Source: Eledone cirrhosa (lineage: Eukaryota). From it: a stretch of 64,000 bases of DNA. The translations under genes and the position numbers were made by a program. The notes below the pieces were generated by a model. The model did no database searches. It saw nothing but the letters and a program-made list of their open reading frames with translations, and was not told where the DNA came from. The DNA is taken from positions 17,918,001-17,982,000 of the forward strand of contig OZ024755.1 in the NCBI GenBank assembly GCA_964016885.1, in the 5' to 3' direction. This document shows positions 7,591 through 64,000 of this stretch, in pieces. Within the stretch, counting starts at the first letter, position 1. Every line of letters starts with the position of its first letter.

Positions 7591-7777
7591 GGGTGGTGGA
7601 TTGGCAGTATCGGTAGAGGGTCGGACACCATGCTTTGTAGCATAGAGTTATGGCCCTTGCCATTCTGAGTTCAAATCCCGCTGAGGTTAACTTTGCCTTT
7701 CATCCTTACGGGGTCGATAAAATAAAGTACCAGTAATGTACTGGATAATTGCTGGCCTTGTGCCAAAAGTAGAAACA
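7591..7777 (+). mobile_element. Full-length SINE family 1 with 17-bp target-site duplication
   Basis: A-box tggcagtatcggtaga, B-box gagttcaaatcc; attatatatatcaagaa repeated at 7568-7584 and 7778-7794. Other copies at 7848-8048, 9003-9250, 24167-24356(-), 29957-30120, 35282-35452. Confidence 0.85.
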
Positions 7778-40665: not shown

Positions 40666-40975
40666 TTAAACAACATTTCTTGATTGGCTAAAATGTAGAG
40701 ATTTTTTTGAAGTTCCAGTCCTTGAAACAGCCACATAAAACATGCCATGACTGAAACATGGGTTTGTCAGATCTATACTAATAGTTTTGAAAGTTTGACC
40801 TTGACTCTTATTGATGCTCATGGCAAAGCATGGCCTCACTGGGAACTGCAGCCTCTTAAATGTAAAAGACAACTCGCTATCACTCGGAATGAGAAGAGCT
40901 TGACCTTTGTAAGCCCCGAATATAATGGTTGCTTCAATCAAGTTCTCATGCAGTGTTGTTACAACACATCTTGTT
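40666..40975 (-). pseudogene. Helitron RepHel PIF1-like helicase C-terminal fragment
   Basis: FKRLQFPVRPCFAMSINKSQGQT and CFSHGMFYVAVSR match the C-terminal motifs of Helitron PIF1-family helicases. Confidence 0.9.
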
Positions 40976-41211
40976 CCATTTATTGGCCAAAATTTTCACT
41001 ATAGGGTGTTTAACCCTCATTAGGGTGGTTTAATATTACTGAAATTTTGTGAATAGGCATCATATCTTGTTGTTTACCTATGGTTTAAATTTCATATAAA
41101 TCGAAGGGGGAAAGTTTTCAGCAGGGGTTTGTGCCCCGGGGAACCCTTTGATGAAAATGAAATATACTTGTCGAAGTACCCTGGGCAATGTAGTTTCAGA
41201 ATATATATTTT

Positions 41212-41900
41212 ATATGTGGCCAGTGCTCTGGTGCAATAAGTAGCAGCAAGTGCCCACAGAATACTAGCTCATTCCATTGCACAGATGGTTCTATAGTAAT
41301 AGTGGACACCTTTCGTTACCTGGGTGACAAAATCAGCAGTGGGGGAGGGTGCTCTGAAAGTACAGTAGTTAGAGTCAGAATGGGATGGAAAAAGTTCAGA
41401 GAGCTTATACCACTATTGGCCGCTAAAGGGTTCTCTCTAAAAATAAAAGGAAGGCTGTATGATGCCTGCATACGAACAGCAATGTTACATGGCAGTGAGA
41501 CCTGGGCATTGTGTGCAGAGGATATACACAGACTGGAGAGGAACGAAGCTTGCATGCTCCGCTGGATGTGTAATAGTAATATACGTGAACGGCAAAGCAT
41601 AAACGAACTAAGGGAGAAATTAGGAATAAGAGGGATCAGATGTTGTTTACTCGAGAGAAGACTACGTTTTACGGTCATGTGATGCGCATGAAAGATGACA
41701 GCTGTATTAAAAAGTGCAGGGCGATATAAAAAAAATAGACGGTAGCTACGGAGTAGGCAGACCCAGAAAAACCTGGGATGACTTGATAAATTCCGACCTC
41801 ACACACTTACACCTCTCCAAGACAATGTCACTGGACCGAGATCTTTGGTGCAACACAGTAATACAGAAGACCCGCCTTGCCTAAGTACAAAGTGAAACCT
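41212..41900 (+). pseudogene. 5'-truncated RTE-clade LINE, reverse transcriptase C-terminal region
   Basis: FRYLGD...GWKKFREL...KGRLYDAC...HGSETW...ERRLR, then after a frameshift YGHVMRM...GRPRKTW. Confidence 0.9.
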
Positions 41901-42419
41901 ACTACAGTCAGTAGGCACCTCTAACAAAAATACACCCCCGTCTAACTACCCCCACCCCATCCACACCACCCCTTTCAATGTAAAGTTATGTTGGTAACAC
42001 AACATCCAGTCCGAAACAAATGAGGTTGTGTAGGTGTCACGACAAAAAAAACACACAGTCCACGCTGTAATGTGGCCGTGTAGGCAACACGGTAAAAACC
42101 TCCCAGTCCACACTGTAAACGTGGTTGGTGTTAGGAAGGGCATCCAGCCGTAGAAAACCCGCCAGACAGTCCTATGCGAGCAAGACAACCACTCTTGCCT
42201 CAAGTGGGAAAACTCCCGTCCAAACCCATGCAAGCGTGGAAGATGGACGTTAAACGGTGATGATGATGATGATGATATATGGTTATGGGGTTCTATTTCC
42301 AAAACTATAGGATGAGTTTGTGAACAAACAAACACACAAACTACAACTTTATATATATAGATATAAGTGAATAGACATGCACATACATACATACATACAT
42401 ATATATATACATTACAAAG

Positions 42420-42593: not shown

Positions 42594-43480
42594 TATATAT
42601 ATGAACAACACACACACATATATGTAATATAAATAATTTATATATGTATACACATATATATATATATATATATATCATATGTATTATATATGTATAATGT
42701 ATAAATATATAATAAATATATATTCCTAACGATCGACTTTCGTCAAATCGGACCGAGGAAACAGTGTTTCCATTGGTCTTTCCAATTGCTAATACTATCT
42801 ATTGGTCGCAACTCCAAGTAGAAGGAGCAACGTGAAATAAAGTGTCTTGCTCAAGGACATAACGCATCACCCGGTCCAGGAATCGAACTCACAACCTCAC
42901 GATTGCGAATCCAGTTCTCGACCCACTCAGCCACACATAAATATATATATATGTATAAATATGTAATAAATATAAATATATAATGTATAAATATATAATA
43001 AATATATTGGAATATAATGTGGGGAGCCCCAAGAAGACCTGGGATGAGGTGATAAAAGCCGACCTTACCCTACAGCTGTAGAAATCAAGCCAAAATCTGT
43101 TCCTGTATGAGCAAGGCATGGTCAGCCGACCAGACACTGCCCACAACAGGACAACCCATCTAACCCATGCTAGCGTGGAAGAATGAACGTAGAACGGTGA
43201 TGATGATATAATATATATATATATATGTTTATAATATATATATATATATATAATATATATATATATATGTTTATAATATATATATATATATATAAATGGA
43301 AAAAATGAAATTTCATTTCTCACTCTTAGTACGGCTGATACTTAAATATAAGTATGTATACGTACATACATACAGATGTACACTAGTATGTATATACATA
43401 CATACATGCACACATATATATATGTACGTATGGGTTTAGCGAAGATTTATTATATTGCTCGGTTTATAATATACATATAT

Positions 43481-43797
43481 GGGAAAATGTATGACCCCGA
43501 CGGCAGAACTCAAGCCGTTTCGACGGCTATTTCTGGACTAAATTAGAATTTTTATCGTGGTAAATAAATAGCCAAACTTTTCAAGGGGTAATTCCTTATA
43601 TGGGAAGATTGTAGTTGTCAAGAGGATTGGTCAAAATTTCTTGTAAACACAATTAAGTATTTCAAGAAAGACTTAATTGTGTTTACAATTTCTTGTAAAC
43701 ACAATTAAGTCTTTCTTGAAATACTTAATTGTGTTGACAAGAAATTTTGACCAATCCTATTTTCCTATTACCCACTCTACTAAGTATTGAGTACTCC
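43481..43797 (+). mobile_element. Fourth copy of the same element, interrupted by a different 136-bp palindrome (43623-43758)
   Basis: Left arm at 43481-43539, family tail at 43759-43797; inserted palindrome with a tttc loop at 43689-43692. Confidence 0.6.
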
Positions 43798-43904
43798 TTA
43801 CAGATATATGTGACATTTTTTTCATAAACTATGAACCAGAAATAGGTTTAGTCAGAATTTTTTTTACAAGTAAGTGTATATATATATGTTACAAAGTCAA
43901 ATTA

Positions 43905-44360
43905 TGTCATTGCCAAGCTAAAGTAATAGAAGGTGAAAAAAGCAATTTCAGGGCATATACTTCTCATAGAATCTTCTACAGCCAGGTTAACCTCATTGAA
44001 TACCAGGTGAAAGAGACAGTTTTAAGGCATATACTTCTCATGTGATTGCCTATGGTCAGATAAAATGTGGTCGATGGTTAGCAAGCAAAAAAAGCAGTTT
44101 TAAGGATCTTCTATGGCCAGCTAAACCCTTGACAATGTGAGAGGGTGAAAGAAGCAGTTTTAGGGTGTATACTTCCTTACAGCCAACTAAATCCTGGTCA
44201 ATGCCAGGTTAGAGGATGAAAGTAACGGCTTTAGGGCATGGTTTGCTTGTAGGCTTTTCTAAGGCCAGCTAAACCCTGGTCCTCTACAGCTAACTAAATC
44301 TTGGTGAATGCCAGGTCAGATGGCGAAATAAGCAGTTTAAGATCATAAACTTCTCGTAGT
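43905..44360 (+). repeat. Degenerate ~80-bp satellite, inverted relative to 51350-52635
   Basis: ccagctaaacc...gtcaatgccagg...gtgaaa...gcagttttaagg...atacttctc is the reverse complement of the 51350-52635 unit. Confidence 0.75.
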
Positions 44361-44619
44361 TAAACCTCGCCTGTCTCTCTTACTCCAGATAATAGAACAG
44401 AGGACTTTGTTAAAAGCTTTCTCTGGAAGAAATCTGCTGTATACTTCTTTGTGTTGTTAGCAGCCAACACACTCAAGTGTAAAAGAAAAAAACTTTATTT
44501 CATATTGTTCCAGTACCCTCAGTAGTTAGGGAGTAAATCCCGCGATAGATCGGTATCCTATCAAGGGAGAATATTGTACTCTGAGACACTTAACAAGGAA
44601 ACCCAATGATAAACATAGA

Positions 44620-45250
44620 ACAAACTTTATATATACTAATTTTTCAATTTACAGAAATATGTATATTAACTTACATATTAATTGTTCGGCATATATCTAC
44701 TAAATACTAATAGTTTATATATAGAAACGGAATGAGAGTAAGGTAACACATAATATATGTTGAGGCGTGTTATCTAGCTTTCTTTCTGCTTCTATATTAA
44801 ACAAACAAAAAAAAAATTTTTTAGATTTAAGTATGACTAATTTATAGAGTATTATTGTGTTGACGTACGTAGCGCTTCGGACTTCATCGCCTACTTATGT
44901 ATGGCGTGGCCATTCTATGTGTCGGAAGATCAAATCGCGGCCTCAGCAGCCGGAACTATTTGCAAGATTGCTTTATGCTAGCATGCGTCCTGGACTGCGT
45001 GAGCAATTATTTTTGCTTTCCCTTTATTTAGAGTTACCTCCTCTTTATGGAACTCTTCTCTTTTTTTTATTGACTTCCGGTTCTTTGAAAAAAATTCATT
45101 TTGGATATTACTTTCCTTATGTATGGAGGTACGTAATGTTTTCTTTGCACGAACTATCTTACACTTTATGTCAATAACTCTCACATTTTGGATATTGTGT
45201 TCACGTGAAGAGGTATTTTATGTGGCTTTCTGGAACATCTTCACCCACTA
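44620..45250 (+). mobile_element. Family B repeat (left arm of the composite)
   Basis: Homologous to 39540-39960 and, in reverse complement, to 50847-51330; also at 54090-54735 and 54950-55610. Confidence 0.7.
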
Positions 45251-45709
45251 GACACATGTTTTCTTTTAAATTAAAAAAACTACACATTATAAACATCATT
45301 CTGTAGATATTTCTTTACTGAATACATAGTAAACCTTGTCAACACTAGCAGATATTCTTGAGACACAAAAATAGGTTTTACTATCTTCTCTTTTTGCTAT
45401 ATACTGTCTACTAAGAAAAATATATAAACCTTCTCTATATACAGCTACATTTTTATTATCTTTCTTTCTTTCATACCCAATGAAGCATGGCACCTTCATT
45501 TCTCGCACACATGTATTATCTTGTACGTAGAAAGTAACCTTTTGTTGTCCAACTAATGGCTACTGTGTGATTTGGAGCAACGTGAAATAAAGTGTCTTGC
45601 TCAAGAACACAACGCAAAGTCCGGTCTGAGAATCGAACTCACGATTGTAAAGTCCGACGACTTAAGTTTTGAACGAATTTGTTTTCGATATCATCATCGT
45701 AATCAAAGA

Positions 45710-48100
45710 TTAACTGTTGATCAGTGTTAACTAGATCGATATCACTTTAACCCACGTAACATAGAACCATTTACATTCTTCTTACGATTCTTTGTTCCCT
45801 TTTAACAATTAACTGTTAATCAGATCGATATCACATCAACCCACGTAACATAGAACCATTTACATTCTTAGTTCCTTTTCAACACTTAACTGTTACTTAG
45901 TGTTAACTAGATCGATATCACATTTACCCACGTAACATAGAACCTTTACATTCTTACTTTGTTTTCAACACTTAACTGTTAGTTAGTGTTAACTAGATCG
46001 ATATCACATTTACCCACGTAACATAGAACCTTTACATTCTTAGTTTCTTTTCAACACTTAACTGTTAGTTAGTTAGTGTTAACTAGATCGATATCACATT
46101 TACCCACGTAACATAGAACCTTTACATTCTTAGTTTCTTTTCAACACTTAACTGTTAGTGTTAACTAGATCGATATCACATTTACCCACGTAACATAGAA
46201 CCTTTACATTGTTTGTTCCTTTTCAACACTTAACTGTTAGTTAGTTAGTGTTAACTAGATCGATATCACATTTACCCACGTAACATAGAACCTTTACATT
46301 CTTAGTTTCTTTGTTCCTTTTCAACACTTAACTGTTAGTTAGTGTTAACTAGATCGATATCACATTTACCCACGTAACATAGAACTTTTACATTCTTTGT
46401 TTCTTTTCAACACTTAACTGTTAGTTAGTGTTAACTAGATCGATATCACATTTACCCACGTAACATAGAACCTTTACATTCTTAGTTTCTTTGTTCCTTT
46501 TCAACACTTAACTGTTAGTTAGTGTTAACTAGATCGATATCACATTTACCCACGTAACATAGAACTTTTACATTCTTTGTTTCTTTTCAACACTTAACTG
46601 TTAGTTAGTGTTAACTAGATCGATATCACATTTACCCACGTAACATAGAACCTTTACATTCTTAGTTTCTTTGTTCCTTTTCAACACTTAACTGTTAGTT
46701 AGTGTTAACTAGATCGATATCACATTTACCCACGTAACATAGAACTTTTACATTCTTTGTTTCTTTTCAACACTTAACTGTTAGTTAGTGTTAACTAGAT
46801 CGATATCACATTTACCCACGTAACATAGAACCTTTACATTCTTAGTTTCTTTGTTCCTTTTCAACACTTAACTGTTAGTTAGTGTTAACTAGATCGATAT
46901 CACATTTACCCACGTAACATAGAACTTTTACATTCTTTGTTTCTTTTCAACACTTAACTGTTAGTTAGTGTTAACTAGATCGATATCACATTTACCCACG
47001 TAACATAGAACTTTTACATTCTTTGTTTCTTTTCAACACTTAACTGTTAGTTAGTGTTAGTTAGATCGATATCACATTTACCCACGTAACATAGAACTTT
47101 TACATTCTTTGTTCCTTTTCAACACTTAACTGTTAGTTAGTGTTAACTAGATCGATATCACATTTACCCACGTAACATAGAACCTTTACATTCTTAGTTT
47201 CTTTTCAACACTTAACTGTTAGTTAGTGTTAACTAGATCGATATCACATTAACCCACGTAACATAGAACCTTTACATTCTTAGTTTCTTTTCAACACTTA
47301 ACTGTTAGTTAGTTAGTGTTAACTAGATCGATATCACATTTACCCACGTAACATAGAACCTTTACATTCTTAGTTTCTTTTCAACACTTAACTGTTAGTT
47401 AGTGTTAACTAGATCGATATCACATTTACCCACGTAACATAGAACCTTTACATTCTTAGTTTCTTTTCAACACTTAACTGTTAGTTAGTGTTAACTAGAT
47501 CGATATCACATTTACCCACGTAACATAGAACCTTTACATTGTTTGTTCCTTTTCAACACTTAACTGTTAGTTAGTGTTAACTAGATCGATATCACATTTA
47601 CCTACGTAACATAGAACCTTTACATTCTTAGTTTCTTTGTTCCTTTTCAACACTTAACTGTTAGTTAGTGTTAACTAGATCGATATCACATTTACCTACG
47701 TAACATAGAACCTTTACATTCTTAGTTTCTTTGTTCCTTTTCAACACTTAACTGTTAGTTAGTGTTAACTAGATCGATATCACATTTACCTACGTAACAG
47801 AACCTTTACATTCTTAGTTTCTTTTCAACACTTAACTGTTAGTTAGTTAGTGTTAACTAGATCGATATCACATTAACCCACGTAACATAGAACCTTTACA
47901 TTCTTAGTTTCTTTTCAACACTTAACTGTTAGTTAGTTAGTGTTAACTAGATCGATATCACATTTACCCACGTAACATAGAACCTTTACATTCTTTGTTC
48001 CTTTTCAACACTTAACTATTAGTTAGTGTTAACTAGATCGATATCACATTAACCCACGTAACATAGAACCTTTACTTTTTAAGTTCCTTTTCAACACTTT
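45710..48100. repeat. 86/90/94-bp satellite array (~27 units) including a 180-bp dimeric higher-order repeat
   Basis: Unit ttttcaacacttaactgttagttagtgttaactagatcgatatcacatttacccacgtaacatagaacctttacattcttagtttc; exact 180-bp period over 46261-46980. Confidence 0.95.
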
Positions 48101-48449
48101 ATTTACATTCTTAGTTTCTTTTTTCGTCATTGACATTCCTAAAAGACAACTAAGAATGTAAATGAAGTTTCTTTCTTTAATTGTTGTTGTTTTTTTAGAT
48201 AATCAAATCGATATCGCTTTAACTGTTAATCTACGTAACTAATAACCATTTACATTCTTTCTTTAAGAAAATTCATATACATTTTTAGTTGCCTCTATTT
48301 AAATATATATATAAGAAAAGACAAAATCGGATGAATTTTATAAAGTTTAATATTCTTTTTATTGATAACGTATGTAAATGACTTTCATTTCTTTTTACAG
48401 ATGTCCAGCCTTCAAGTTCATATGCTGTGTTGTTTGGCGTAGTTTCTGT

Positions 48450-48670
48450 TAATAAAGAAAATTTACATGTTGATTCCGTCATAAATGAATAAAGAAAATG
48501 TACATAATATATACGAATTGTATTCCATTTATTTTGCCATAAACGAATAAAGAAAATTTACATATCATATACGAATTGTATTCAGTTTATTTTGCCATAA
48601 ATGAATAAAGAAAATTTACATAATATATACGAATTGAATTCAGTTTATTTTGCCAAAAATGAATCAAGAA
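48450..48670. repeat. 58-bp tandem repeat (~3.5 units; ~4.5 units at 57945-58220)
   Basis: ataaa(t/c)gaataaagaaaatttacata...tacgaattgtattccatttattttgcc. Confidence 0.85.
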
Positions 48671-48816
48671 ACCGTGAAGTTTCTAAATAAAGAAGCTAAG
48701 AATGTTTTTTTTCTCCACATCAGATGATACTCATGCCTGGATCGAGGAACTGATGTTGCTCAAGCGAGGTAAAAAAAAAAATTAAAAAGGGCTCCCTCTG
48801 CGAATGAACTGAAAAG

Positions 48817-48960
48817 TCAAGGGAGGTAACTCTTCCTTAGTAAGAGTTACCTCCCTTAAAAAAAAAATTTTTTTTTAAAGGGAGATAACTATTATCTCCC
48901 TTTAAAAATTTTTTTTTTAAAGGGAGATAACTCTTACTTTTGAAGAGTTACCTCCCTTGA
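48817..48960. other. 144-bp nested palindrome of six alternating GGGAG(G/A)TAA motifs
   Basis: Perfect 19-bp termini tcaagggaggtaactcttc/gaagagttacctcccttga; three internal hairpins separated by AnTn tracts. Confidence 0.9.
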
Positions 48961-48974
48961 TTAGTGTTTTAAAA

Positions 48975-49197
48975 AGAAACTAAGAATGTATATGAAGTGT
49001 CTATAAAGAAACTAAGAATGTAGATGAAGTGTCTATAAAGAATCTAAATGAAGTGTCTAAAAAGAATCTAGATGAAGTGTCTATAAAGAATCTAGATGAA
49101 GTGTCTAAAAAGAATCTAAATGAAGTGTCTATAAAGAATCTAGATGAAGTGTCTATAAAGAATCTAAATGAAGTGTCTATAAAGAATCTAAATGAAA
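48975..49197. repeat. 24-bp tandem repeat (tctataaagaatctaaatgaagtg)
   Basis: About 8 units; shorter array at 58513-58633. Confidence 0.9.
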
Positions 49198-50846
49198 CTA
49201 TATGAAATGTGTGTTTTTGAAAGTGTCAAAAAAAATTCTATATGAAATGAGTGTTTTTGAAAAGTCGAAAAAAAATTCTATATGAAATGTGTGTTTTTGA
49301 AAAGTCGAAAAAAATTTCTATATGAAATGAGTGTTTTTGAAAAGTCGAAAAAAAATTCTATATGAAATGTGTGTTTTTGAAAAGTCGAAAAAAAATTCTA
49401 TATGAAATGTGTGTTTTTGAAAAGTCGAAAAAAAATTCTATATGAAATGTGTGTTTTTGAAAAGTCGAAAAAAAATTCCATATGAAATGAGTGTTTTTGA
49501 AAAGTTGAAAAAAAATTCTATATGAAATGTGTGTTTTTGAAAAGTCGAAAAAAAATTCCATATGAAATGTGTGTTTTTGAAAAGTCGAAAAAAATTCTAT
49601 ATGAAATGTGTGTTTTTGAAAAGTCGAAAAAAAATTCTATATGAAATGTGTGTTTTTGAAAAGTCGAAAAAAAATTCTATATGAAATGTGTGTTTTTGAA
49701 AAGTCGAAAAAAAATTCTATATGAAATGTGTGTTTTTGAAAAGTCGAAAAAAAATTCTATATGAAATGTGTGTTTTTGAAAAGTCGAAAAAAAATTCTAT
49801 ATGAAATGAGTGTTTTTGAAAAGTCGAAAAAAAATTCTATATGAAATGAGTGTTTTTGAAAAGTCGAAAAAAAATTCTATATGAAATGTGTGTTTTTGAA
49901 AAGTCGAAAAAAAATTCTATATGAAATGAGTGTTTTTGAAAAGTCGAAAAAAAATTCTATATGAAATGTGTGTTTTTGAAAAGTTGAAAAAAAATTCTAT
50001 ATGAAATGAGTGTTTTTGAAAAGTCGAAAAAAAATTCTATATGAAATGTGTGATTTTGAAAAGTCGAAAAAAAATTCTATATGAAATGTGTGATTTTGAA
50101 AAGTCGAAAAAAAATTCTATATGAAATGAGTGTTTTTGAAAAGTCGAAAAAAAATTCTATATGAAATGTGTGTTTTTGAAAAGTCGAAAAAAAATTCTAT
50201 ATGAAATGTGTGTTTTTGAAAAGTCGAAAAAAAATTCTATATGAAATGAGTGTTTTTGAAAAGTCGAAAAAAAATTCTATATGAAATGTGTGCTTTTGAA
50301 AAGTCGAAAAAAAATTCTATATGAAATGAGTGTTTTTGAAAAGTCGAAAAAAAATTCTATATGAAATGTGTGTTTTTGAAAAGTCGAAAAAAAATTCTAT
50401 ATGAAATGTGTGTTTTTGAAAAGTCGAAAAAAAATTCTATATGAAATGAGTGTTTTTGAAAAGTCGAAAAAAAATTCTATATGAAATGTGTGTTTTTGAA
50501 AAGTCGAAAAAAATTTTATATGAAATGAGTGTTTTTGAAAAGTCGAAAAAAAATTCTATATGAAATGTGTGTTTTTGAAAAGTCGAAAAAAAATTCTATA
50601 TGAAATGTGTGTTTTTGAAAAGTCGAAAAAAAATTCTATATGAAATGAGTGTTTTTGAAAAGTCGAAAAAAAATTCTATATGAAATGTGTGTTTTTGAAA
50701 AGTCGAAAAAAAATTCTATATGAAATGAGTGTTTTTGAAAAGTCGAAAAAAAATTCTATATGAAATGTGTGTTTTTGAAAAGTCGAAAAAAAATTCTATA
50801 TGAAATGAGTGTTTTTGAAAAGTCGAAAAAAAATTCTATATGAAAT
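49198..50846. repeat. 40-bp A-tract satellite (~41 units)
   Basis: Unit ttctatatgaaatg(t/a)gtgtttttgaaaagtcgaaaaaaaa. Confidence 0.95.
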
Positions 50847-51330
50847 TTGTTTTCTTTCAAACAACCGGAAGTCAATCGAAAAAAGAGTTAAATAAAGGGA
50901 GATAATTCTAACATTTTTTAGCAAAAGGGGGTAAGGCGGATTCTCATCGTGGTCTAGGACGCAGGCCAGCATATAGCCAGCCTGCAAACATCCCAGCCGC
51001 CGTAGCCACGTGCACACCACAACGATTCGAACTTGGGATACATAGTATGGAAACGACACATACATACGTAGCCGACGACGTCCGAGCCGTTGCGCGCATC
51101 GCCACGCACAAGCCGCAATTCTACTAAGTAAAATAGATATATTTATAGGTACAATTTTATTTACTTTTTTAAAAAAAAATATAGAAACGGAAAGGGAGAT
51201 AACACGTCTCAAAATATATTCCGTATGTTATCTCACTCATTCCGTTTCTATATATAAAGTAATTTTGAACGTATATACGGAACAATTTTTATGGAAATAA
51301 ATATACTTATGTCAAGCTGGTAACATATAT
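50847..51330 (-). mobile_element. Family B repeat, diverged inverted copy (right arm)
   Basis: accggaagtcaat and gataacacgtctcaaaatatatt...cactcattccgtttctatatata are reverse complements of motifs in 44715-45090. Confidence 0.75.
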
Positions 51331-51349
51331 ATTACCTCCGTTTAGACGG

Positions 51350-52635
51350 CAGTCCAGCAACATTATTGACTTGCTTCTTTCGCCCTCATACCTGATACTG
51401 ACCAGCTTTAGTTGGCCGTACGACATCCTATGGTACGTATACGCTATAAAACTGCTTCTTTGGCCATAGGAGATACTATGTGAAGTATATGCTTCTCTCG
51501 CCCTCTAAGCTTGTAGTGACTAGGGTTCAGCTGGCCGTAGGAAATACGCTGGGAAGTATGCATTCTAAAACTGCTTCTTTCAGCCTCTGACCACAGATTA
51601 TCGTACGAGAAGTTTACTCCCTTAAAGTGCTTCAATCGCCATCACGACATTGACCAGGGTTTAGCTGGCTGTAGAGGTTCCTACGAGATGTTTACACCCT
51701 CTAAACAGGCACTGATCATGGTTTAGCTGGCCGTAGAGGATCCCACGAGAAGTATACGGCCTTAAACTGCTTATTTCACCATCTAACTTGGCATTGACCA
51801 AGCTTTTGCTGGCCGTAGCGGATCGTACGAGATATTTACGCCCTTAAAGTGCTTCAATCGCCCGCTCTGTGGAGACGGGTGGTTTAGCTGGCTGTAGAGG
51901 ATCCTACGAGATGTTTAGGCACTGATTATGGTTTAGCTGGCCGTAGAGAGTCCCACGAGAAGTATACGGCCTTAAACTGCTTATTTCACCATCTAACTTG
52001 GCATTGACCAAGGTTTAGAGGATCGTACGAGATGTTTACGTGCTTCAATCGCCCGCTCTGTGGAGACGGGTAGTTTAGCTGGCTGTAGAGGATCCTACGA
52101 GATGTTTACGCCCTCTAAGTAGGCACTGATTATGGTTTAAGTGATCGTACGAGATGTTTACAGGCACTGATCATGGTTTAGCTGGCTGTAGAGGATGTTT
52201 ACGCCCTCTAAGTAGGCACTGGTTATGGTTTAGCTGATCGTACGAGATGTTTACGCCCTCTAAACAGGCACTGATCATGGTTTAGCTGGCCGTAGAGGAT
52301 CCCACGAGAAGTATACGGCCTTAAACTGCTTATTTCACCATCTAACTTGGCATTGACTAAGGTTTAGCTGGCCGTAGAGTATCGTACGAGATGTTTACGC
52401 CCTTAAAGTGCTTCACTCGCCCGCTTTGTGGAGACGGGTGGTTTAGCTGGCTGTAGAGGATCCTACGAGATGTTTACGCCCTCTAAGTAGGCACTCATTA
52501 TGGTTTAGCTGATCGTACGAGATGTTTACGCCCTCTAAACAGGCACTGATCATGGTTTAGCTGGCCGTAGAGGATTTCCACGAGAAGTATACGGCCTTAA
52601 ACTGCTTATTTCACCTTCTCACCTGGAATTGACCA
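51350..52635 (-). repeat. Complex ~50-85 bp satellite (ggtttagctggccgtagaggatcc..cgagaagtatacggccttaaactgct)
   Basis: Recurrent sub-units with block duplications; second copy at 61410-62682. Confidence 0.85.
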
Positions 52636-53355
52636 ACTATGGAGGAGGGTGGTTTTGGTGTGCCATGTAGGTATACTTCAATGGTTCTAACTGTTTACTA
52701 TGAGTGGCAGATTGACAATCAACTGCACACACATGTAAAGTGGAACAGGCATAAGCAATAACATTATCATATCTGGATTGCTTTGGAAACGTAAGATAAT
52801 GTAGCATGATCAATCGATCACGTAACAGTTAACACCATTGAAATACAACACTACGTGTAGATGTTGCAGTAGCTAAACAAAACTATCGTTTCAATAATTA
52901 TTGCTGACGTTTATGGAAGTAAATAAACATAAAACTGTTCAACATAAAATAAAACTTTACTTTACCTCCTTATAAATAGTAAAATCCAAGTTTTTAACGT
53001 TTTTCATTCGGGTTGGAAAAAAAAGGAAATTGTTCCAGATGCCATTTTGTTTTTGCGAAACAGAATTAGGCCAATTACGCATGCGCAAAAAAGTAGACAT
53101 CAGTACGCATGTGCAAAAAAGTAGACACCAGTGCGCATGCGCAAAGTATTTAAAGCCATTGCGACTTCACGATCGTGAGTTCAATTCTTTTAGATTGTAT
53201 ACTTCCCATTTTATATATAGTATATATATATATTTATATAAATAATTACTATATATATTAATACGTACATATATATGTATTTATACACATATATATAAAT
53301 TATTTGTATATGAATAAATATGTATATATATTATATACATACATATTTATTTCTA

Positions 53356-53420
53356 CTAGCTAAACTACCTGTCCTTTGGACGGTTCATGTAGCTCATTAA
53401 AGTAAATTTGAATGCATACT
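53356..53420 (-). mobile_element. Helitron-like 3' terminus
   Basis: Minus strand: gtcc-aaa-ggac hairpin, then aggtagtttagCTAG|T; repeated at 63377. Confidence 0.55.
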
Positions 53421-53877
53421 AGAAAAACGTACTTTATGTAAACATGAAAACCTTAGACACTATTCCAGCGAAATGATATTGTTATTATCTTTGTTTCAAG
53501 TAGTATAAATTGCTGGTTGTGAAGTTATTATCTTTGTTTCAAGTCGAAGGTTATAGATTGCTGGTTGTGAAATATACGAAATGATATTGTTATTATCTTT
53601 GTTCAAGTAGAAAGAGTAAATTAAAACCCGACTGACGCTAATTACGAAAGATAATTCTTGATTAGGAAACATAACTCTTGTGTTACTTAATCACGAAAAT
53701 CCACACAGTCTAATTACATCATTATTCACTAATCGGTGTGTTGTATATGTCACCTTGATTAATCAACATGTTTACCATAAGTATATATATAGGCCCCCAA
53801 TGGCCTATATACACTGCCCCTTTTCCTCTAACCAGCATCTATTACTTCCCTTTATCCACACACAGGTACAACATTGA

Positions 53878-54737
53878 TGCACCACATTATTATCTTTGTT
53901 TCTATTACTTCCCTCTATCCACACACAGATACAACATAGCAGCCAACACACTCAAGTGTAAAAGAAAAAAAATCTTATTTCATATTGTTCCAGTAGTTAG
54001 GGAGTAAATCCCGCGATAGATCGCTATCCTATCAAGGGAGAATCTTGTACTCTGAGACACTTAACAAGGAAACCTAATTATAAACTTAGAACAAACTTTA
54101 TATATACTAATTTTTTCAATTTACAGAAACATGTATATTAACTTACATATTAATTGTTCGGCATATATCTACTAAATGCTAATAGTTTTTTAATTAATTT
54201 ATATATAGAAACGGAATGAGAGTAAGGTAACACATAATATATGTTGAGGCGTGTTATCTAGCTTTCTTTCTGCTTCTATATTAAACAAACAACAAAAAAA
54301 AATTTTAGATTTAAGTATGACTAATTTATAGAGTATTATTGTGTTGACGCACGTAGCGGTTCGGACTTCATCGCCTACTTATGTATGGCGTGGCCATTCT
54401 ATGTGTCGGAAATCAAATCGCGGCCTCAGCAGCCGGAACAATTTGCAAGATTGCTTTATGCTAGCATGCGTCCTGGACTGCGTGAGCAATTATTTTTGCT
54501 TTCCCTTTATTTAGAGTTACCTCCTCTTTATTGAACTATTCTCTTTTTTTTATTGACTTCCGGTTCTTTGAAAAAATTCATTTTGGATATTACTTTCCTT
54601 ATGTATGGAGGTACGTAATGTTTTCTTTGCTCGAACTATCTTACACTTTATGTCAATAACTCTCACATTTTGGATATTGTGTTTATGTGGCTTTCTGGAA
54701 CATCTTCACCCACTAGACACATGTTTTCTTTTAAATA
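53878..54737 (+). repeat. ~860-bp extra partial repeat at the junction of the large duplication
   Basis: accacattattatctttg...tagcagccaacac...family B occurs at 53881 and again at 54739. Confidence 0.9.
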
Positions 54738-56059
54738 AACCACATTATTATCTTTGTTTCTATTACTTCCCTCTATCCACACACAGATACAACATAGCAG
54801 CCAACACACTCAAGTGTAAAAGAAAAAAACCTTATTTCATATTGTTCCAGTAGTTAGGGAGTAAATCCCGCGATTGATCGCTATCCTATCAAGGGAGAGT
54901 CTTGTACTCTGAGACACTTAACAAAAAAACCCAATGATAAACTTAGAACAAACTTTATATATACTAATTTTTTCAATTTACAGAAACAAGTATATTAACT
55001 TACATATTAATTGTTCGGCATATATCTACTAAATACTAATAGTTTTTAAATTAATTTATATATAGAAACGGAATGAGAGTGAGGTAACACATAATATATG
55101 TTGAGGCGTGTTATCTAGCTTTCTTTCTGCTTCTATATTAAACAAACAAAAAAAAATTTTTTTAGATTTAAGTATGACTAATTTATAGAGTATTATTGTG
55201 TTGACGCACGTAGCGGTTCGGACTTCATCGCCTACTTATGTATGGCGTGGCCATTCTATGTGTCGGAAGATCAAATCGCGGCCGCCGGAACTATTTGCAA
55301 GATTGCTTTATACTAGCATGCATCCTGGACTGCGTGAGCAATTATTTTTGCTTTCCCTTTATTTAGAGTTACCTCCTCTTTATGGAACTCTTCTCTTTTT
55401 TTTATTGACTTCCGGTTCTTTGAAAAGAATTCATTTTGGATATTACTTTCCTTATGTATGGAGGTTATGGAGGTACGTAATGTTTTCTTTGCTCGAACTA
55501 TCTTACACTTTATGTCAATAACTCTCACATTTTGGATATTGTGTTCACGTGAAGAGGTATTTTATGTGGCTTTCTGGAACATCTTCACCCACTAGACACA
55601 TGTTTTCTTTTAAATTAAAAAAACTACACATTATAAACATCATTCTGTAGATATTTCTTTATTGAATACATAGTAAACCTTGTCAACACTAGCAGATATT
55701 CTTGAGACACAAAAATAGGTTTTACTATCTTCTCTTTTTGCTATATACTGTCTACTAAGAAAAATATATAAACCTTCTCTATATACAGCTACATTTTTAT
55801 TATCTTTATTTCTTTCATACCCAATGAAGCATGGCAGCTTCATTTCTCGCACCCATTTATTATCTTGTACGTAGAAAGTAACCTTTTGTTGTCCAACTAT
55901 TGCTACTGTGTGATTTGGAGCAACGTGAAATAAAGTGTCTTGCTCAAGAACACCACTCAAGAACACCACCGGTCTGAGAATCGAACTCACGATTGTAAAG
56001 TCCGACGACTTAAGTTTTGAACGAATTTGTTTTCGATATCATCATCGTAATCAAAGATT

Positions 56060-57590
56060 AACTGTTGATCAGTGTTAACTAGATCGATATCACTTTAACC
56101 CACGTAACATAGAACCATTTACATTCTTCTTACGATTCTTTGATCCCTTTTAACAATTAACTGTTAATCAGATCGATATCACATCAACCCACGTAACATA
56201 GAACCATTTACATTCTTAGTTCCTTTTCAACACTTAACTGTTAGTTAGTGTTAACTAGATCGATATCACATTTACCTACGTAACATAGAACCTTTACATT
56301 CTTAGTTTCTTTGTTTCTTTTCAACACTTAACTGTTAGTTAGTGTTAACTAGATCGATATCACATTTACCTACGTAACATAGAACCTTTACATTCTTAGT
56401 TTCTTTGTTCCTTTTCAACACTTAACTGTTAGTTAGTGTTAACTAGATCGATATCACATTTACCTACGTAACATAGAACCTTTACATTCTTAGTTTCTTT
56501 GTTCCTTTTCAACACTTAACTGTTAGTTAGTGTTAACTAGATCGATATCACATTTACCTACGTAACATAGAACCTTTACATTCTTAGTTTCTTTTCAACA
56601 CTTGACTGTTGATTAGTGTTAACTAGATCGACGTAACATAGAACCATTTACATTCTTTGTTCCTTTTCAACACTTAACTGTTAGTTAGTGTTAACTAGAT
56701 CGATATCACATTTACCCACGTAACATAGAACTTTTACATTCTTTGTTCCTTTTCAACACTTAACTATTAGTTAGTGTTAACTAGATCGATATCACATTAA
56801 CCCACGTAACATAGAACCTTTACATTCTTAGTTTCTTTGTTCCTTTTCAACACTTAACTGTTAGTTAGTGTTAACTAGATCGATATCACATTTACCTACG
56901 TAACATAGAACCTTTACATTCTTAGTTTCTTTGTTCCTTTTCAACACTTAACTGTTAGTTAGTGTTAACTAGATCGATATCACATTTACCTACGTAACAT
57001 AGAACCTTTACATTCTTAGTTTCTTTGTTCCTTTTCAACACTTAACTGTTAGTTAGTGTTAACTAGATCGATATCACATTTACCTACGTAACATAGAACC
57101 TTTACATTCTTAGTTTCTTTGTTCCTTTTCAACACTTAACTGTTAGTTAGTGTTAGCTAGATCGATATCACATTTACCTACGTAACATAGAACCTTTACA
57201 TTCTTAGTTTCTTTGTTCCTTTTCAACACTTAACTGTTAGTTAGTGTTAACTAGATCGATATCACATTTACCTACGTAACATAGAACCTTTACATTCTTA
57301 GTTTCTTTGTTCCTTTTCAACACTTAACTGTTAGTTAGTGTTAACTAGATCGATATCACATTTACCTACGTAACATAGAACCTTTACATTCTTAGTTTCT
57401 TTGTTCCTTTTCAACACTTAACTGTTAGTTAGTGTTAACTAGATCGATATCACATTTACCCACGTAACATAGAACCTTTACATTCTTTGTTCCTTTTCAA
57501 CACTTAACTATTAGTTAGTGTTAACTAGATCGATATCACATTAACCCACGTAACATAAAACCTTTACTTTTTAAGTTCCTTTTCAACACT
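56060..57590. repeat. 86/94-bp satellite array, copy 2 (~16-17 units, mostly 94-bp 'cctacg' variant)
   Basis: Same unit as 45710-48100 with a different dominant variant. Confidence 0.95.
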
Positions 57591-58399
57591 TTATTTACAT
57601 TCTTAGTTTCTTTTTTCGTCATTGACATTCCTAAAAGACAACTAAGAATGTAAATGAAGTTTCTTTCTTTAATTGTTGTTGTTTTTTTAGATAATCAAAT
57701 CGATATCGCTTTAACTGTTAATCTACGTAACTAATAACCATTTACATTCTTTCTTTAAGAAAATTCATATACATTTTTAGTTGCCTCTATTTAAATATAT
57801 ATATAAGAAAAGACAAAATCGGATGAATTTTATAAAGTTTAATATTCTTTTTATTGATAACGTATGTAAATGACTTTCATTTCTTTTTACAGATGTCCAG
57901 CCTTCAAGTTCATATGCTGTGTTGTTTGGCGTAGTTTCTGTTAATAAAGAAAATTTACATGTTGATTCCGTCATAAATGAATAAAGAAAATGTACATAAT
58001 ATATACGAATTGTATTCCATTTATTTTGCCATAAACGAATAAAGAAAATTTACATATCATATACGAATTGTATTCCATTTATTTTGCCATAAACGAATAA
58101 AGAAAATTTACATATCATATACGAATTGTATTCCATTTATTTTGCCATAAACGAATAAAGAAAATTTACATATTATATACGAATTGAATTCTGTTTATTT
58201 TGCCAAAAATGAATCAAGAAACCGAGTAAAACGTACTATAAAGAACGTAAAGTGTATATGAAGTTTCTAAATAAAGAAGCTAAGAATGTTTTTTTTTCTC
58301 CACATCAGATGATACTCATGCCTGGATCGAGGAACTGATGTTGCTCAAGCGAAGTAAAAAAAAATAAGAAAGGGCTCCCTCTGCGAATGAACTGAAGAG

Positions 58400-58499
58400 T
58401 CAAGGGAGGTAACTCTTCCTTAGTAAGAGTTATCCCCCTTTAAATTTTTTTTTTTAAAAAGGGACATAACTCTTACTTTTGAAGAGTTACCTCCCTTGA
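58400..58499. other. 100-bp version of the nested palindrome (four motifs, central hairpin absent)
   Basis: Same 19-bp termini as 48817-48960. Confidence 0.9.
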
Positions 58500-58633
58500 T
58501 TAGTGTTTTAAATAGAAACTAAGAATGTAGATGAAGTGTCTATAAAGAATCTAAATGAAGTGTCTAAAAAGAATCTAAATGAAGTGTCTATAAAGAATCT
58601 AAATGAAGTGTCTATAAAGAATCTAAATGAAAC

Positions 58634-60905
58634 TATATGAAATGTGTGTTTTTGAAAAGTCGAAAAAAAATTCTATATGAAATGAGTGTTTTTGAAAAGT
58701 CGAAAAAAAATTCTATATGAAATGAGTGTTTTTGAAAAGTCGAAAAAAAATTCTATATGAAATGTGTGTTTTTGAAAAGTCGAAAAAAAATTCTATATGA
58801 AATGTGTGTTTTTGAAAAGTCGAAAAAAAATTCTATATGAAATGTGTGTTTTTGAAAAGTCGAAAAAAAATTCTATATGAAATGAATGTTTTTGAAAAGT
58901 CGAAAAAAAATTCTACATGAAATGTGTGTTTTTGAAAAGTCGAAAAAAATTTCTATATGAAATGAGTGTTTTTGAAAAGTCGAAAAAAATTTCTATATGA
59001 AATGAGTGTTTTTGAAAAGTCGAAAAAAATTTCTATATGAAATATGTGTTTATGAAAAGTCGAAAAAAAATTCCATATGAAATGTGTGTTTTTGAAAAGT
59101 CGAAAAAAAATTCCATATGAAATGTGTGTTTTTGAAAAGTCGAAAAAAAATTCCATATGAAATGAGTGTTTTTGAAAAGTCGAAAAAAAATTCTATATGA
59201 AATGAGTGTTTTTGAAAAGTCGAAAAAAAATTCTATATGAAATGTGTGTTTTTGAAAAGTCGAAAAAAAATTCTATATGAAATGTGTGTTTTTGAAAAGT
59301 CGAAAAAAAATTCTATATGAAATGTGTGTTTTTGAAAAGTCGAAAAAAAATTCTATATGAAATGAGTGTTTTTGAAAAGTCGAAAAAAAATTCTATATGA
59401 AATGTGTGTTTTTGAAAAGTCGAAAAAAAATTCTATATGAAATGTGTTTTTGAAAAGTCGAAAAAAAATTCTATATGAAATGAGTGTTTTTGAAAAGTCA
59501 AAAAAAAATTCTATATGAAATGTGTGTTTTTGAAAAGTCGAAAAAAAATTCTATATGAAATGAGTGTTTTTGAAAGGTCGAAAAAAAATTCTATATGAAA
59601 TGTGTGTTTTTGAAAAGTCGAAAAAAAATTCTATATGAAATGTGTGTTTTTGAAAAGTCGAAAAAAAATTCTATATGAAATGAGTGTTTTTGAAAAGTCG
59701 AAAAAAAATTCTATATGAAATGTGTGTTTTTGAAACGTCGAAAAAAAATTCTATATGAAATGTGTGTTTTTGAAACGTCGAAAAAAAATTCTATATGAAA
59801 TGAGTGTTGTCGAAAAAAAATTCTATATGAAATGAGTGTTTTTGAAAAGTCGAAAAAAAATTCCATATGAAATGAGTGTTTTTGAAAGGTCGAAAAAAAA
59901 TTCTATATGAAATGTGTGTTTTTGAAAAGTCGAAAAAAAATTCCATATGAATTGTGTGTTTTTGAAAAGTCGAAAAAAAATTCTATATGAAATGTGTGTT
60001 TTTGAAAAGTCGAAAAAAAATTCTATATGAAATGAGTGTTTTTGAAAAGTCGGAAAAAAATTCTATATGAAATGTGTGTTTTTGAAAAGTCGAAAAAAAA
60101 TTCTATATGAAATGTGTGTTTTTGAAAAGTCGAAAAAAAATTCTATATGAAATGAGTGTTTTTGAAAAGTCGGAAAAAAATTCTATATGAAATGTGTGTT
60201 TTTGAAAAGTCGAAAAAAATTTCTATATGAAATGAGTGTTTTTGAAAAGTCGAAAAAAATTTCTATATGAAATGAGTGTTTTTGAAAGGTCGAAAAAAAT
60301 TTCTATATGAAATGTGTGTTTTTGAAAAGTCGAAAAAAAATTCTATATGAAATGTGTGTTTTTGAAAAGTCGAAAAAAAATTCTATATGAAATGAGTGTT
60401 TTTGAAAAGTCGAAAAAAAATTCTATATGAAATGTGTGTTTTTGAAACGTCGAAAAAAAATTCTATATGAAATGTGTGTTTTTGAAAAGTCGAAAAAAAA
60501 TTCTATATGAAATGAGTGTTGTCGAAAAAAAATTCTATATGAAATGAGTGTTTTTGAAAAGTCGAAAAAAAATTCCATATGAAATGAGTGTTTTTGAAAG
60601 GTCGAAAAAAAATTCTATATGAAATGTGTGTTTTTGAAAAGTCGAAAAAAAATTCCATATGAATTGTGTGTTTTTGAAAAGTCGAAAAAAAATTCTATAT
60701 GAAATGTGTGTTTTTGAAAAGTCGAAAAAAAATTCTATATGAAATGAGTGTTTTTGAAAAGTCGGAAAAAAATTCTATATGAAATGTGTGTTTTTGAAAA
60801 GTCGAAAAAAAATTCTATATGAAATGTGTGTTTTTGAAAAGTCGAAAAAAAATTCTATATGAAATGAGTGTTTTTGAAAAGTCGAAAAAAAACTCTATAT
60901 GAAAT
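58634..60905. repeat. 40-bp A-tract satellite, copy 2 (~57 units)
   Basis: Same unit; contains a repeated run of variants offset by 712 bp. Confidence 0.95.
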
Positions 60906-63900
60906 TTGTTTTCTTTCAAACAACCGGAAGTCAATCGAAAAAAGAGTTAAATAAAGGGAGATAATTCTAACATTTTTTAGCAAAAGGGGGTAAGGCGGAT
61001 TCTCATCGTGGTCTAGGACGCAGGCCAGCATATAGCCAGCCTGCAAACATCCCAGCCGCCGTAGCCACGTGCACACCACAACGATTCGAACTTGGGATAC
61101 ATAGTATGGAAACGACACATACATACGTAGCCGACGACGTCCGAGCCGTTGCGCGCATCGCCACGCACAAGCCGCAATTCTACTAAGTAAAATAGATATA
61201 TTTATAGGTACAATTTTATTTACTTTTTTTAAAAAAAATATAGAAACGGAAAGGGAGATAACACGTCTCAAAATATATTCCGTATGTTATCTCACTCATT
61301 CCGTTTCTATATATAAAGTAATTTTGAACGTATATACGGAACAATTTTTATGGAAATAAATATACTTATGTCAAGCTGGTAACATATATATTACCTCCGT
61401 TTAGACGGCAGTCCAGCAACATTATTGACTTGCTTCTTTCGCCCTCATACCTGATACTGACCAGCTTTAGTTGGCCGTACGACATCCTATGGTACGTATA
61501 CGCTATAAAACTGCTTCTTTGGCCATAGGAGATACTATGTGAAGTATATGCTTCTCTCGCCCTCTAAGCTTGTAGTGACTAGGGTTCAGCTGGCCGTAGG
61601 AAATACGCTGGGAAGTATGCATTCTAAAACTGCTTCTTTCAGCCTCTGACCACAGAGAAGTTTACTCCCTTAAAGTGCTTCAATCGCCATCACGACATTG
61701 ACCAGGGTTTAGCTGGCTGTAGAGGTTCCTACGAGATGTTTACACCCTCTAAACAGGCACTGATCATGGTTTAGCTGGCCGTAGAGGATCCCACGAGAAG
61801 TATACGGCCTTAAACTGCTTATTTCACCATCTAACTTGGCATTGACCAAGCTTTTGCTGGCCGTAGCGGATCGTACGAGATATTTACGCCCTTAAAGTGC
61901 TTCAATCGCCCGCTCTGTGGAGACGGGTGGTTTAGCTGGCTGTAGAGGATCCTACAAGATGTTTAGGCACTGATTATGGTTTAGCTGGCCGTAGAGAGTC
62001 CCACGAGAAGTATACGGCCTTAAACTGCTTATTTCACCATCTAACTTGGCATTGACCAAGGTTTAGAGGATCGTACGAGATGTTTACGTGCTTCAATCGC
62101 CCGCTCTGTGGAGACGGGTAGTTTAGCTGGCTGTAGAGGATCCTACGAGATGTTTACGCCCTCTAAGTAGGCACTGATTATGGTTTAAGTGATCGTACGA
62201 GATGTTTACAGGCACTGATCATGGTTTAGCTGGCTGTAGAGGATGTTTACGCCCTCTAAGTAGGCACTGGTTATGGTTTAGCTGATCGTACGAGATGTTT
62301 ACGCCCTCTAAACAGGCACTGATCATGGTTTAGCTGGCCGTAGAGGATCCCACGAGAAGTATACGGCCTTAAACTGCTTATTTCACCATCTAACTTGGCA
62401 TTGACTAAGGTTTAGCTGGCCGTAGAGTATCGTACGAGATGTTTACGCCCTTAAAGTGCTTCACTCGCCCGCTCTGTGGAGACGGGTGGTTTAGCTGGCT
62501 GTAGAGGATCCTACGAGATGTTTACGCCCTCTAAGTAGGCACTGATTATCGTTTAGCTGATCGTACGAGATGTTTACGCCCTCTAAACAGGCACTGATCA
62601 TGGTTTAGCTGGCCGTAGAGGATCCCACGAGAAGTATACGTCCTTAAACTGCTTCAATCACCCTCTCACCTGGAATTGACCAACTATGGAGGAGGGTGGT
62701 TTTGGTGTACCATGTAGGTATACTTCAATGGTTCTAACTGTTTACTATGAGTGGCAGATTGACAATTAACTGCACACACATGTAAAGTGGAACAGGCATA
62801 AGCAATAACATTATCATATCTGGATTGCTTTGGAAACGTAAGATAATGTAGCATGATCAATCTATCACGTAACAATGAGCGCCTTTGAAATACAACACTA
62901 CGTGGAGATGTTGCAGTAGCTAAACAAAACCATCGTTTCAATAATTATTGCTGACGTTTATGGAAGTAAATAAACATAAAACTGTTCAACATAAAATAAA
63001 ACTTTACTTTACCTCCTTATAAATAGTAAAATCCAAGTTTTTAACGTTTTTCATTCGGGTTGGAAAAAAAAAGAAATTGTTCCAGATGCCATTTTGTTTT
63101 TGCGAAACAGAATTAGGCCAATTACGCATGCGCAAAAAAGTAGACATCAGTACGCATGTGCAAAAAAGTAGATACCAGTGCGCATGCGCAAAGTATTTAA
63201 AGCCATTGCGACTTCACGATCGTGAGTTCAATTCTTTTAGATTGTATACTTCCCATTTTATATATAGTATATATATATTAATACGTACATATATATGTAT
63301 TTATACACATATATATAAATTATTTGTATATGAATAAATATGTATATATATTATATACATACATATTTATTATATACTAGCTAAACTACCTGTCCTTTGA
63401 ACGGTTCATGTAGCTCATTAAAGTAAATTTGAATGCATAGAAGAAAAACGTACTTTATGTAAACATGAAAACCTTAGGCACTATTCCAGCGAAATGATAT
63501 TGTTATTATCTTTGTTTCAAGTAGTATAAATTGCTGGTTGTGAAGTTATTATCTTTGTTTCAAGTAGAAGGTTATAGATTGCTGGTTGTGAAATATACGA
63601 AATGATATTGTTATTATCTTTGTTCAAGTAGAAAGAGTAAATTAAAACCCGACTGACGCTAATTACGAAAGATAATTCTTGATTAGGAAACATAACTCTT
63701 GTGTTACTTAATCACGAAAATCCACACAATCTAATTACATCATTATTCACTAATCGGTGTGTTGTATATGTCACCTTGATTAATCAACATGTTTACCATA
63801 AGTATATATATATAGGCCCCCAATGGCCTATATACACTGCCCCTTTTCCTCTAACCAGCATCTATTACTTCCCTTTATTGATGCACCACATTAACTTTGT

Positions 63901-64000
63901 TTCTATTACTTCCCTTTATCCAAGTCCAACGTGAGAGGACATTTTCAAAGCTAAAGATCATAATGACAAGGGGTCTTAAAGTCAACTTAACAAAAACTAA

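What the first reader, a model, noticed from the sequence alone, without database searches (positions are those of the whole stretch)
43905..52635. ~8.7 kb foldback-like composite: diverged inverted arms enclosing satellites and a central palindrome
Seen: module order is 80-bp satellite(+), family B(+), 86-bp satellite, 58-bp repeat, nested palindrome, 24-bp repeat, 40-bp satellite, family B(-), 80-bp satellite(-). Two different outer modules are mirrored in the same order, and the inner motif tacattcttagtttctt of the 86-mer appears as its reverse complement aagaaactaagaatgta just right of the palindrome. No coding capacity is evident. Inference: an ancient giant inverted repeat or a modular non-autonomous element (Foldback/Helentron-like) whose arms amplified different sub-motifs. 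It could be a structural chromosomal unit such as a centromeric/subtelomeric block or origin. I know no named element with this layout.
Basis: partly seen in the sequence, partly recalled or inferred. Interest (0 to 1): 0.7.

Follow-up and report, generated by a model that had tools for sequence, protein, structure and literature searches.

The report
Mirror-armed mosaic duplication family, no transposase
This mirror-image stretch is one copy of a non-coding family, with about 100 marker hits crowded on three small chromosomes, that shows no fixed ends or insertion footprints and is likely spread and reshuffled by DNA-repair copying around its own hairpins and satellites rather than by a jumping-gene enzyme.

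Summary
The mirror layout is real and not chance, but it is not a unique structural unit. The block is repeated head-to-tail in the window (53881-63922, 98-100% per module). It belongs to a family: a 17-base core marker occurs 102 times, and 75 of the 100 listed hits lie on three contigs holding 4.3% of the genome. Outer modules point towards the core in 202 of 215 cases. Foldback membership tests fail: 30 arm-end pairs show no shared terminus and no 7-10 bp target duplication outside TA runs, and no transposase goes with the family. Copies are mosaics. The window's two B arms fall in different deep clades. Its 40-mer/B cassette differs 0.7-6.4% from 15 other loci, while their cores differ 8-31%. 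Some loci have renewed 98-99% palindromes, one mirroring a LINE piece. Best reading: a palindrome-prone, core-duplicon-like segmental-duplication family, likely driven by hairpin breakage and ectopic templated repair. It possibly descends from a dead foldback transposon. Promoter- and splice-like motifs are present, but expression is untested. The scan found this family before at another locus (e1-9521618).

The parts
43292..43796 (.). Flank shared with the sister locus C15:16.15 Mb, partly inverted there; includes a 142-bp palindrome at 43620-43761; made of other repeats rather than family modules
   Evidence: fold z -22.8
43800..44357 (+). Left lead-in and decayed 80-bp repeat array; homology to other family copies begins near 43800
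44358..45709 (+). Left arm unique modules, including B-left (44654-45110, GC-rich, ETS-like motif recalled) and a short common repeat piece at 45575-45642
45710..48099 (+). 86-bp satellite, 27 copies
48096..48168 (.). 73-bp hairpin built from the motif shared by the 86-mer and 24-mer
   Evidence: fold z -8.3
48320..48480 (+). Conserved core module c2, found in 56 of 60 fetched regions; carries a splice-acceptor-like sequence (untested)
48480..48816 (+). 58-bp repeat (3.3 copies) and a decayed remnant of a hairpin that is intact in other copies
   Evidence: z -1.4 here
48817..48960 (.). Nested central palindrome made of repeated GGGAGRTAACT hairpins
   Evidence: matched over 130 bp with 0 differences by a short-read contig
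48973..49196 (+). 32/24-bp repeats carrying the reverse complement of the 86-mer motif
49198..51330 (-). Young cassette: 40-bp satellite (41 copies) plus B-right with a 75-bp hairpin at 51179-51253; nearly identical at loci whose cores are diverged
51331..52640 (-). Right linker and 80-bp-derived modular array, non-coding
52641..53213 (-). Modules t1/t2; t2 has two NRF1-like motifs, a YY1-like motif (decayed in this copy) and a donor-like site pointing inward (motif names recalled; transcription untested)
53214..53880 (+). Family AT tract, an inserted repeat and module t4; right end of copy 1
53881..63922 (+). Second, head-to-tail copy that starts inside the left arm and has an internal 860-bp duplication (53881-54739 / 54739-55618)
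   Evidence: junction pieces present in short-read contigs

Best explanation
The block is one mosaic copy of a non-coding family of interspersed duplications built around a conserved hairpin-rich core, and it is likely propagated by host repair copying rather than by a transposase. Shown: a dispersed family clustered on a few contigs; inward-pointing modules; variable ends; module-by-module mosaicism; local tandem duplication; and loci whose two arms are sisters. Inferred mechanism: (1) the stacked hairpins and AT/satellite tracts would break or stall forks; (2) a broken end would fold back or switch template, copying one arm plus whatever flanks it into an inverted arm; (3) repair on a paralogue, seeded by shared satellites or common SINE/LINE pieces, would swap cassettes such as 40-mer+B and copy 10-25 kb blocks to new sites, mostly on the same chromosome; (4) slippage would then expand different sub-motifs in each arm. 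In this copy the arms diverged long ago and were carried along together.
For: 102 exact hits of the core 17-mer versus 0 for the control; 75 of 100 listed on C13, C15 and C20, which hold 4.3% of the genome. No shared arm terminus: 28 different 12-mers at 30 arm ends; no direct repeat of 7 bp or more outside TA runs. B tree of 78 rows: window left and right B fall on opposite sides of the deepest split (100/100), while the arms are sisters at C12 and C23 (100/99, 100/100). Window versus 15 loci: B-right 0.7-6.4%; core 7.8-30.6% (13 of the 15 had one); B-left 1.9-35.8% (14 had one). The C12 palindrome has 98-99% arms including a LINE fragment that is cut on the left and continues on the right. 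In 3 of 10 C20 palindromes both arms are closer to their partner than to any other sampled arm. Among 8 locus pairs, the closest share 11-24 kb at 94-99%, with printed ends in common repeats, TA runs or the family's own arrays. A piece of a hAT ORF is fused mid-frame to a core half and shared by 3 loci. Foldback priming with template switching is described in PMC10622511 (passages).
Against: No breakage or repair intermediate was observed; the mechanism rests on end products. Arm ends found by BLAST need not be true element ends, and old transposons lose their TSDs. Galileo also shows chimeric copies without matching TSDs (PMC3573991 passages). In 7 of 10 C20 palindromes the arms were not both closest to each other: 1 tie, 1 failed alignment, and 5 closer to another locus or the tandem twin. 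The loci were chosen as top B-right hits, which favours a young B-right; selection on that variant is not excluded (6 synonymous versus 9 non-synonymous variants in its ORF). Chromosome clustering is also what local hopping would give. The marker comes from this copy, so diverged subfamilies are missed; one family hit lies on the large contig C6.
Confidence: 0.6

Rival explanations
1. Decayed or non-autonomous Foldback-type DNA transposon (Mutator-, Galileo- or Tetris-like) whose true ends have been eroded; the repeated GGGAGRTAAC motif would be a transposase-binding site.
For: Long modular inverted arms with internal tandem repeats, as in Tetris (PMC4079207 sections 10 and 17). The motif occurs 11 times in 3,980 bp versus 5 times in 43,000 bp of the rest of the window. 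One C13 copy has 94%-identical 490-bp t1/t2 arms ending in AT tracts on both sides.
Against: No TSD of 7-10 bp outside TA runs and no common end in 30 pairs. Arm identity is highest at the centre, not at the ends. The AT tract is internal in many copies, where more family modules follow it. Of 112 representative ORFs, the only transposase pieces were Tc1/DDE_3 at one locus and hAT at one. None of 12 MULE hits lies at a listed core site; the nearest is about 0.8 Mb away (low-power search).
Confidence: 0.2
2. Helitron/Helentron-derived composite that captured fragments and satellites by rolling-circle read-through.
For: Variable ends, captured fragments, no TSD and head-to-tail tandem copies fit Helitrons (established knowledge). 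PIF1 helicase pieces occur in 5 of 60 regions.
Against: The helicase pieces are only 31-47% alike, lie at varied positions and show no shared junction. No common 5'-TC or 3'-CTRR end was seen. The tandem junction is inside a module. Inverted arms are not explained.
Confidence: 0.1
3. A transcribed non-coding gene family: promoter and first exon in t2 or B, acceptor in c2, read convergently into a long hairpin RNA, and kept by selection.
For: Conserved NRF1-, YY1- and ETS-like motifs (names recalled), donor-like and acceptor-like sites oriented inward, and pre-miRNA-like hairpins in some cores.
Against: Conservation is not confined to the motifs. The donor-like sites are broken in some copies, and one is a recombination junction. 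The Rfam hits are all below the gathering score and reflect generic hairpins.
Confidence: 0.15
4. Assembly artefact (false tandem duplication, or foldback reads making the palindromes).
For: Copy 1 and copy 2 are identical over the core and 99.8% over B-right. An earlier scan note reports an adapter-centred palindrome elsewhere in this assembly.
Against: The window's arms are 66-86% alike, which reads cannot create. Short-read contigs hold the central palindrome and an 86-bp exact piece across the copy junction, with 56 + 30 letters on the two sides, one short of the tool's 31-letter rule (one sample). C20 palindromes share asymmetric junctions between loci. The 99-100% palindromes themselves were not checked against reads.
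Confidence: 0.04

Closest known systems
Foldback-structured transposons: Tetris of Drosophila virilis (PMC4079207; abstract, sections 10 and 17 read) and Galileo (PMC3573991; passages read)
   Same: Non-coding, long modular inverted arms with internal tandem repeats that grow into satellite-like arrays; many rearranged and chimeric copies.
   Different: Tetris has 8-10 bp TSDs and a defined outer domain; Galileo has 7-bp TSDs and a transposase. Here there is no common end, TSD or transposase, arms match best at the centre, and flanking host repeats are mirrored.
Primate core duplicons, e.g. GOLGA and NPIP (PMC6920530, PMC6436712; passages read)
   Same: A shared core inside mosaic duplication blocks, dispersed and tandem along single chromosomes, with palindromic configuration at breakpoints.
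   Different: Those cores hold protein-coding, testis-expressed gene families in blocks of hundreds of kb. Here the core is non-coding, the blocks seen are 10-25 kb, and subfamilies occupy several chromosomes.
Euchromatic satellite spread in the Drosophila simulans clade (PMC7403614; passages read)
   Same: Chromosome-limited spread of a young repeat into loci that already carry a related satellite, proposed to occur by interlocus conversion or eccDNA; resembles the 40-mer+B cassette.
   Different: There only satellite monomers move. Here unique modules and large inverted arms move with them.

Membership tests
Foldback-type TIR transposon (FB/Tetris/Galileo) | Long modular inverted arms with internal tandem repeats | tested here: met
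Foldback-type TIR transposon (FB/Tetris/Galileo) | Conserved terminal sequence shared by copies | tested here: not met
   28 different 12-mers at 30 arm ends; varied outer extents
Foldback-type TIR transposon (FB/Tetris/Galileo) | 7-10 bp target-site duplication | tested here: not met
   0 of 30 outside TA runs and none at 7 window end pairs; true ends may lie elsewhere
Foldback-type TIR transposon (FB/Tetris/Galileo) | Autonomous partner with transposase sharing the ends | tested here: inconclusive
   None among 112 representative ORFs or 12 MULE hits; P/THAP families not searched
Helitron/Helentron | 5'-TC and 3' hairpin-CTRR ends, or subterminal inverted repeats at fixed ends (recalled definition) | tested here: not met
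   No fixed end in flanks inspected
Helitron/Helentron | Linked RepHel of one family | tested here: not met
   Unrelated PIF1 pieces in 5 of 60 regions
Core duplicon | Shared core within mosaic duplication blocks | tested here: met
   c2 in 56 of 60 regions; mosaic identities
Core duplicon | Copies dispersed and tandem, largely confined to single chromosomes | tested here: met
   75 of 100 listed hits on three contigs, with subfamilies by contig
Core duplicon | Core carries a protein-coding gene family | tested here: not met
   No frame-conserved ORF and no homologue
Core duplicon | Core is transcribed and copy-number polymorphic | not testable with these tools
   Needs RNA data and further individuals
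Centromeric or subtelomeric block | Restriction to one chromosomal region | tested here: not met
   Hits run from 1.5 to 26 Mb on C15, 2.6 to 44.9 Mb on C13 and 9 to 35 Mb on C20
Centromeric or subtelomeric block | CENP-A binding | not testable with these tools
   No chromatin data

The most novel reading that the evidence does not exclude
A self-propagating, enzyme-free 'palindrome duplicon'. Its hairpin core triggers its own re-inversion and ectopic copying, while inward-facing promoters make kilobase fold-back RNAs (small-RNA or editing substrates) from about a hundred sites on a few small chromosomes of a likely cephalopod. This would be a non-coding counterpart of primate core duplicons.
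Probability: 0.15. Interest if true: 0.75.

Novelty: new variant of a known kind. Interest (0 to 1): 0.45.

Why it matters
How core duplicons seed chromosome-confined interspersed duplications is listed as an open question (PMC6920530, discussion passage). This family shows that behaviour with a compact non-coding core and about a hundred natural replicates, from 27%-diverged arms to fresh 99% palindromes, so breakage-and-template-switch models can be tested directly. It also warns that a foldback shape need not mean a Foldback transposon. If no function is found, it is one more complex repeat in a repeat-rich genome.

Tried and rejected
Expression: no RNA holder listed; this is no evidence either way. 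Rfam gave 30 sub-threshold hairpin matches. Retrogene cargo idea: long intronless ORFs near three copies (tRNA synthetase, lipid-droplet hydrolase, CMIP6). The two that were searched are single-copy host genes, so the idea was rejected; CMIP6 was not searched genome-wide. A coding 80-mer array was rejected (stops in all frames). A B microprotein was rejected. The AT tract after t2 as a terminus was rejected because more family modules follow it in several copies. Helitron and hAT pieces as partners were rejected. Summed contig depth over c2 was high but was not used as a copy number. The binomial p overstates significance, since hits cluster per locus. Scan look-ups by sequence and by nearby place were blank. 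Literature searches with no hit: octopus+foldback+transposable element, cephalopod+core duplicon, and a four-term Galileo search. The listings showed no description of this family; PMC8967140 (passages) set unknown repeats aside. Repeat libraries such as Repbase and Dfam, and subscription papers, could not be searched, so an unnamed library entry is possible.
Full report
Observation. The outer 80-bp arrays match inverted at 65-86%, and the two B modules at 66% by BLAST (27% substitutions). The central 144-bp palindrome is far more stable than shuffles (z -14.6); two more hairpins lie at 48096-48168 and 51179-51253. Short-read contigs of one sample contain the palindrome. There is no conserved reading frame.

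The block is repeated head-to-tail at 53881-63922, with modules 97.7-100% identical. The second copy begins inside the left arm and contains an 860-bp internal duplication. An exact 86-bp contig spans the junction with 56 and 30 letters on the two sides, one letter short of the tool's bridging rule.

Family. The window is G000 C15:17,918,001-17,982,000 of a 3.0-Gb genome; that it is an octopus is my inference from recall, not a tool result. B had 331 candidates, of which 40 were scored. A 17-base marker of the core occurs 102 times against 0 for the control. Of the 100 listed, 20 are on C13, 17 on C15 and 38 on C20, which together hold 4.3% of the genome, and none is on C1-C6. Hits cluster per locus and the marker misses diverged copies; one family hit is on C6. 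In 60 fetched regions (1.43 Mb) the core is present in 56, outer modules point inward in 202 of 215 cases, and 24 of 56 have a convergent B pair. The mirror order is therefore inherited, not chance.

No transposon ends. At 30 arm-end pairs there are 28 different terminal 12-mers. Direct repeats of 5 bp or more occur at 4: three are TA runs and one is a 5-mer, against a 6.4% chance rate. The flanks of the outer modules diverge at many different points. Among 112 representative ORFs from the 120 stretches then held, Pfam found LINE pieces, two PIF1 pieces, Tc1/DDE and hAT pieces at single loci, and host exons. Twelve MULE hits lie away from the listed cores. These tests have limits: eroded ends would be missed, and P/THAP families were not searched.

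Mosaic history. In a tree of 78 B copies, the window's left and right B lie on opposite sides of the deepest split, each with same-side arms of other loci. At C12 and C23 the two arms are sisters, and weakly so at one C20 locus. Against 15 loci chosen for B-right similarity, B-right differs 0.7-6.4% from the window, the core 7.8-30.6% (13 loci) and B-left 1.9-35.8% (14 loci). All 15 carry a long 40-mer array next to it. The C12 copy has 98-99% arms that include a LINE fragment, cut on the left and continuing on the right. Ten C20 palindromes show convergent markers 1.3-1.5 kb apart. The five C20 centres printed are GC-rich nested hairpins of variable unit number. In 3 of the 10 palindromes both arms are closest to their own partner; in the other 7 they are not. 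Among 8 locus pairs compared, the closest share 11-24 kb at 94-99%, and the printed ends lie in common repeats, TA runs or family arrays. A hAT fragment is fused mid-frame to a core half.

Mechanism. The end products above are shown; the steps are inferred. Hairpins would break or stall forks; foldback priming and template switching would renew an arm and capture flank (a model in PMC10622511, passages); repair on paralogues, seeded by satellites, would swap cassettes and copy blocks along the chromosome (compare PMC7403614, passages); slippage would expand different sub-motifs. I give this 0.6. A decayed Foldback origin (0.2) fits the shape and the repeated motif (11 in 3,980 bp versus 5 in 43,000 bp) and may be the family's ancestry, but two defining features failed. 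A Helitron origin (0.1) leaves the inverted arms unexplained. A transcribed hairpin-RNA family (0.15) is compatible with the best explanation: promoter- and splice-like motifs point inward (motif names recalled), but they are not uniquely conserved and expression is untested. Artefact is unlikely for this locus (0.04); the near-perfect palindromes elsewhere were not checked against reads.

Comparison. It looks like Tetris and Galileo (PMC4079207, abstract and sections 10 and 17; PMC3573991, passages) but is not filed with them. It behaves like primate core duplicons (PMC6920530 and PMC6436712, passages) but lacks a protein-coding core, so it is not filed there either. Searches found no paper joining these terms with octopus or cephalopod; repeat libraries could not be searched. 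An earlier unreviewed scan note (e1-9521618) describes a 14,630-base palindrome, the same length as my C12 copy, with a similar reading. That is not independent support. My tests here add the failed terminus and TSD test, the arm tree, the cassette mosaicism and the chromosome tally.

Verdict. Real; a new variant of a known kind; interest 0.45.

Noticed in passing
window 39548-39948: Solitary, more diverged (69-73%) remnant of module B about 4 kb left of the block, with scraps of t4 and t1 at 39981-40224; possibly an older family copy.
   Followed up: partly
window 40654-40980 (-): PIF1-like Helitron helicase fragment (47% over 118 aa), followed by a LINE fragment near 41200-42280.
   Followed up: no
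window 43620-43761: 142-bp near-perfect palindrome with an internal 52-bp duplication; a shorter version lies at the sister locus C15:16.149 Mb.
   Followed up: partly
L011-L012 (C15 about 17,985,200-18,002,000): A 30-bp tandem array of at least 16 kb starts about 3 kb after the window and reads as very long open frames on the minus strand.
   Followed up: no
L060/L061, L062/L063, L066, L185, L188 (C20 palindrome centres): GC-rich nested hairpin centre with variable unit number and flipped inner segments, reminiscent (recalled) of replicated hairpin-end junctions.
   Followed up: partly
C19_14050 region (L064 about 6750-8770): 100%-identical inverted pair around a mirrored fragment resembling a Penelope-type endonuclease (resemblance recalled) that truncates the family copy; could be an element inversion or a read artefact.
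   Followed up: no
L157:1662-3170, L173:3798-4535, L180:5781-6584: Long uninterrupted host ORFs (class II tRNA synthetase 503 aa, lipid-droplet hydrolase 246 aa, CMIP6 268 aa) within about 7 kb of family copies; the first two are single-copy.
   Followed up: partly
L205-L207 (C20:35.22-35.24 Mb): Another head-to-tail duplication of a whole family unit, 10.3 kb apart and 99.9-100% alike around the core, paralleling the window's tandem.
   Followed up: partly
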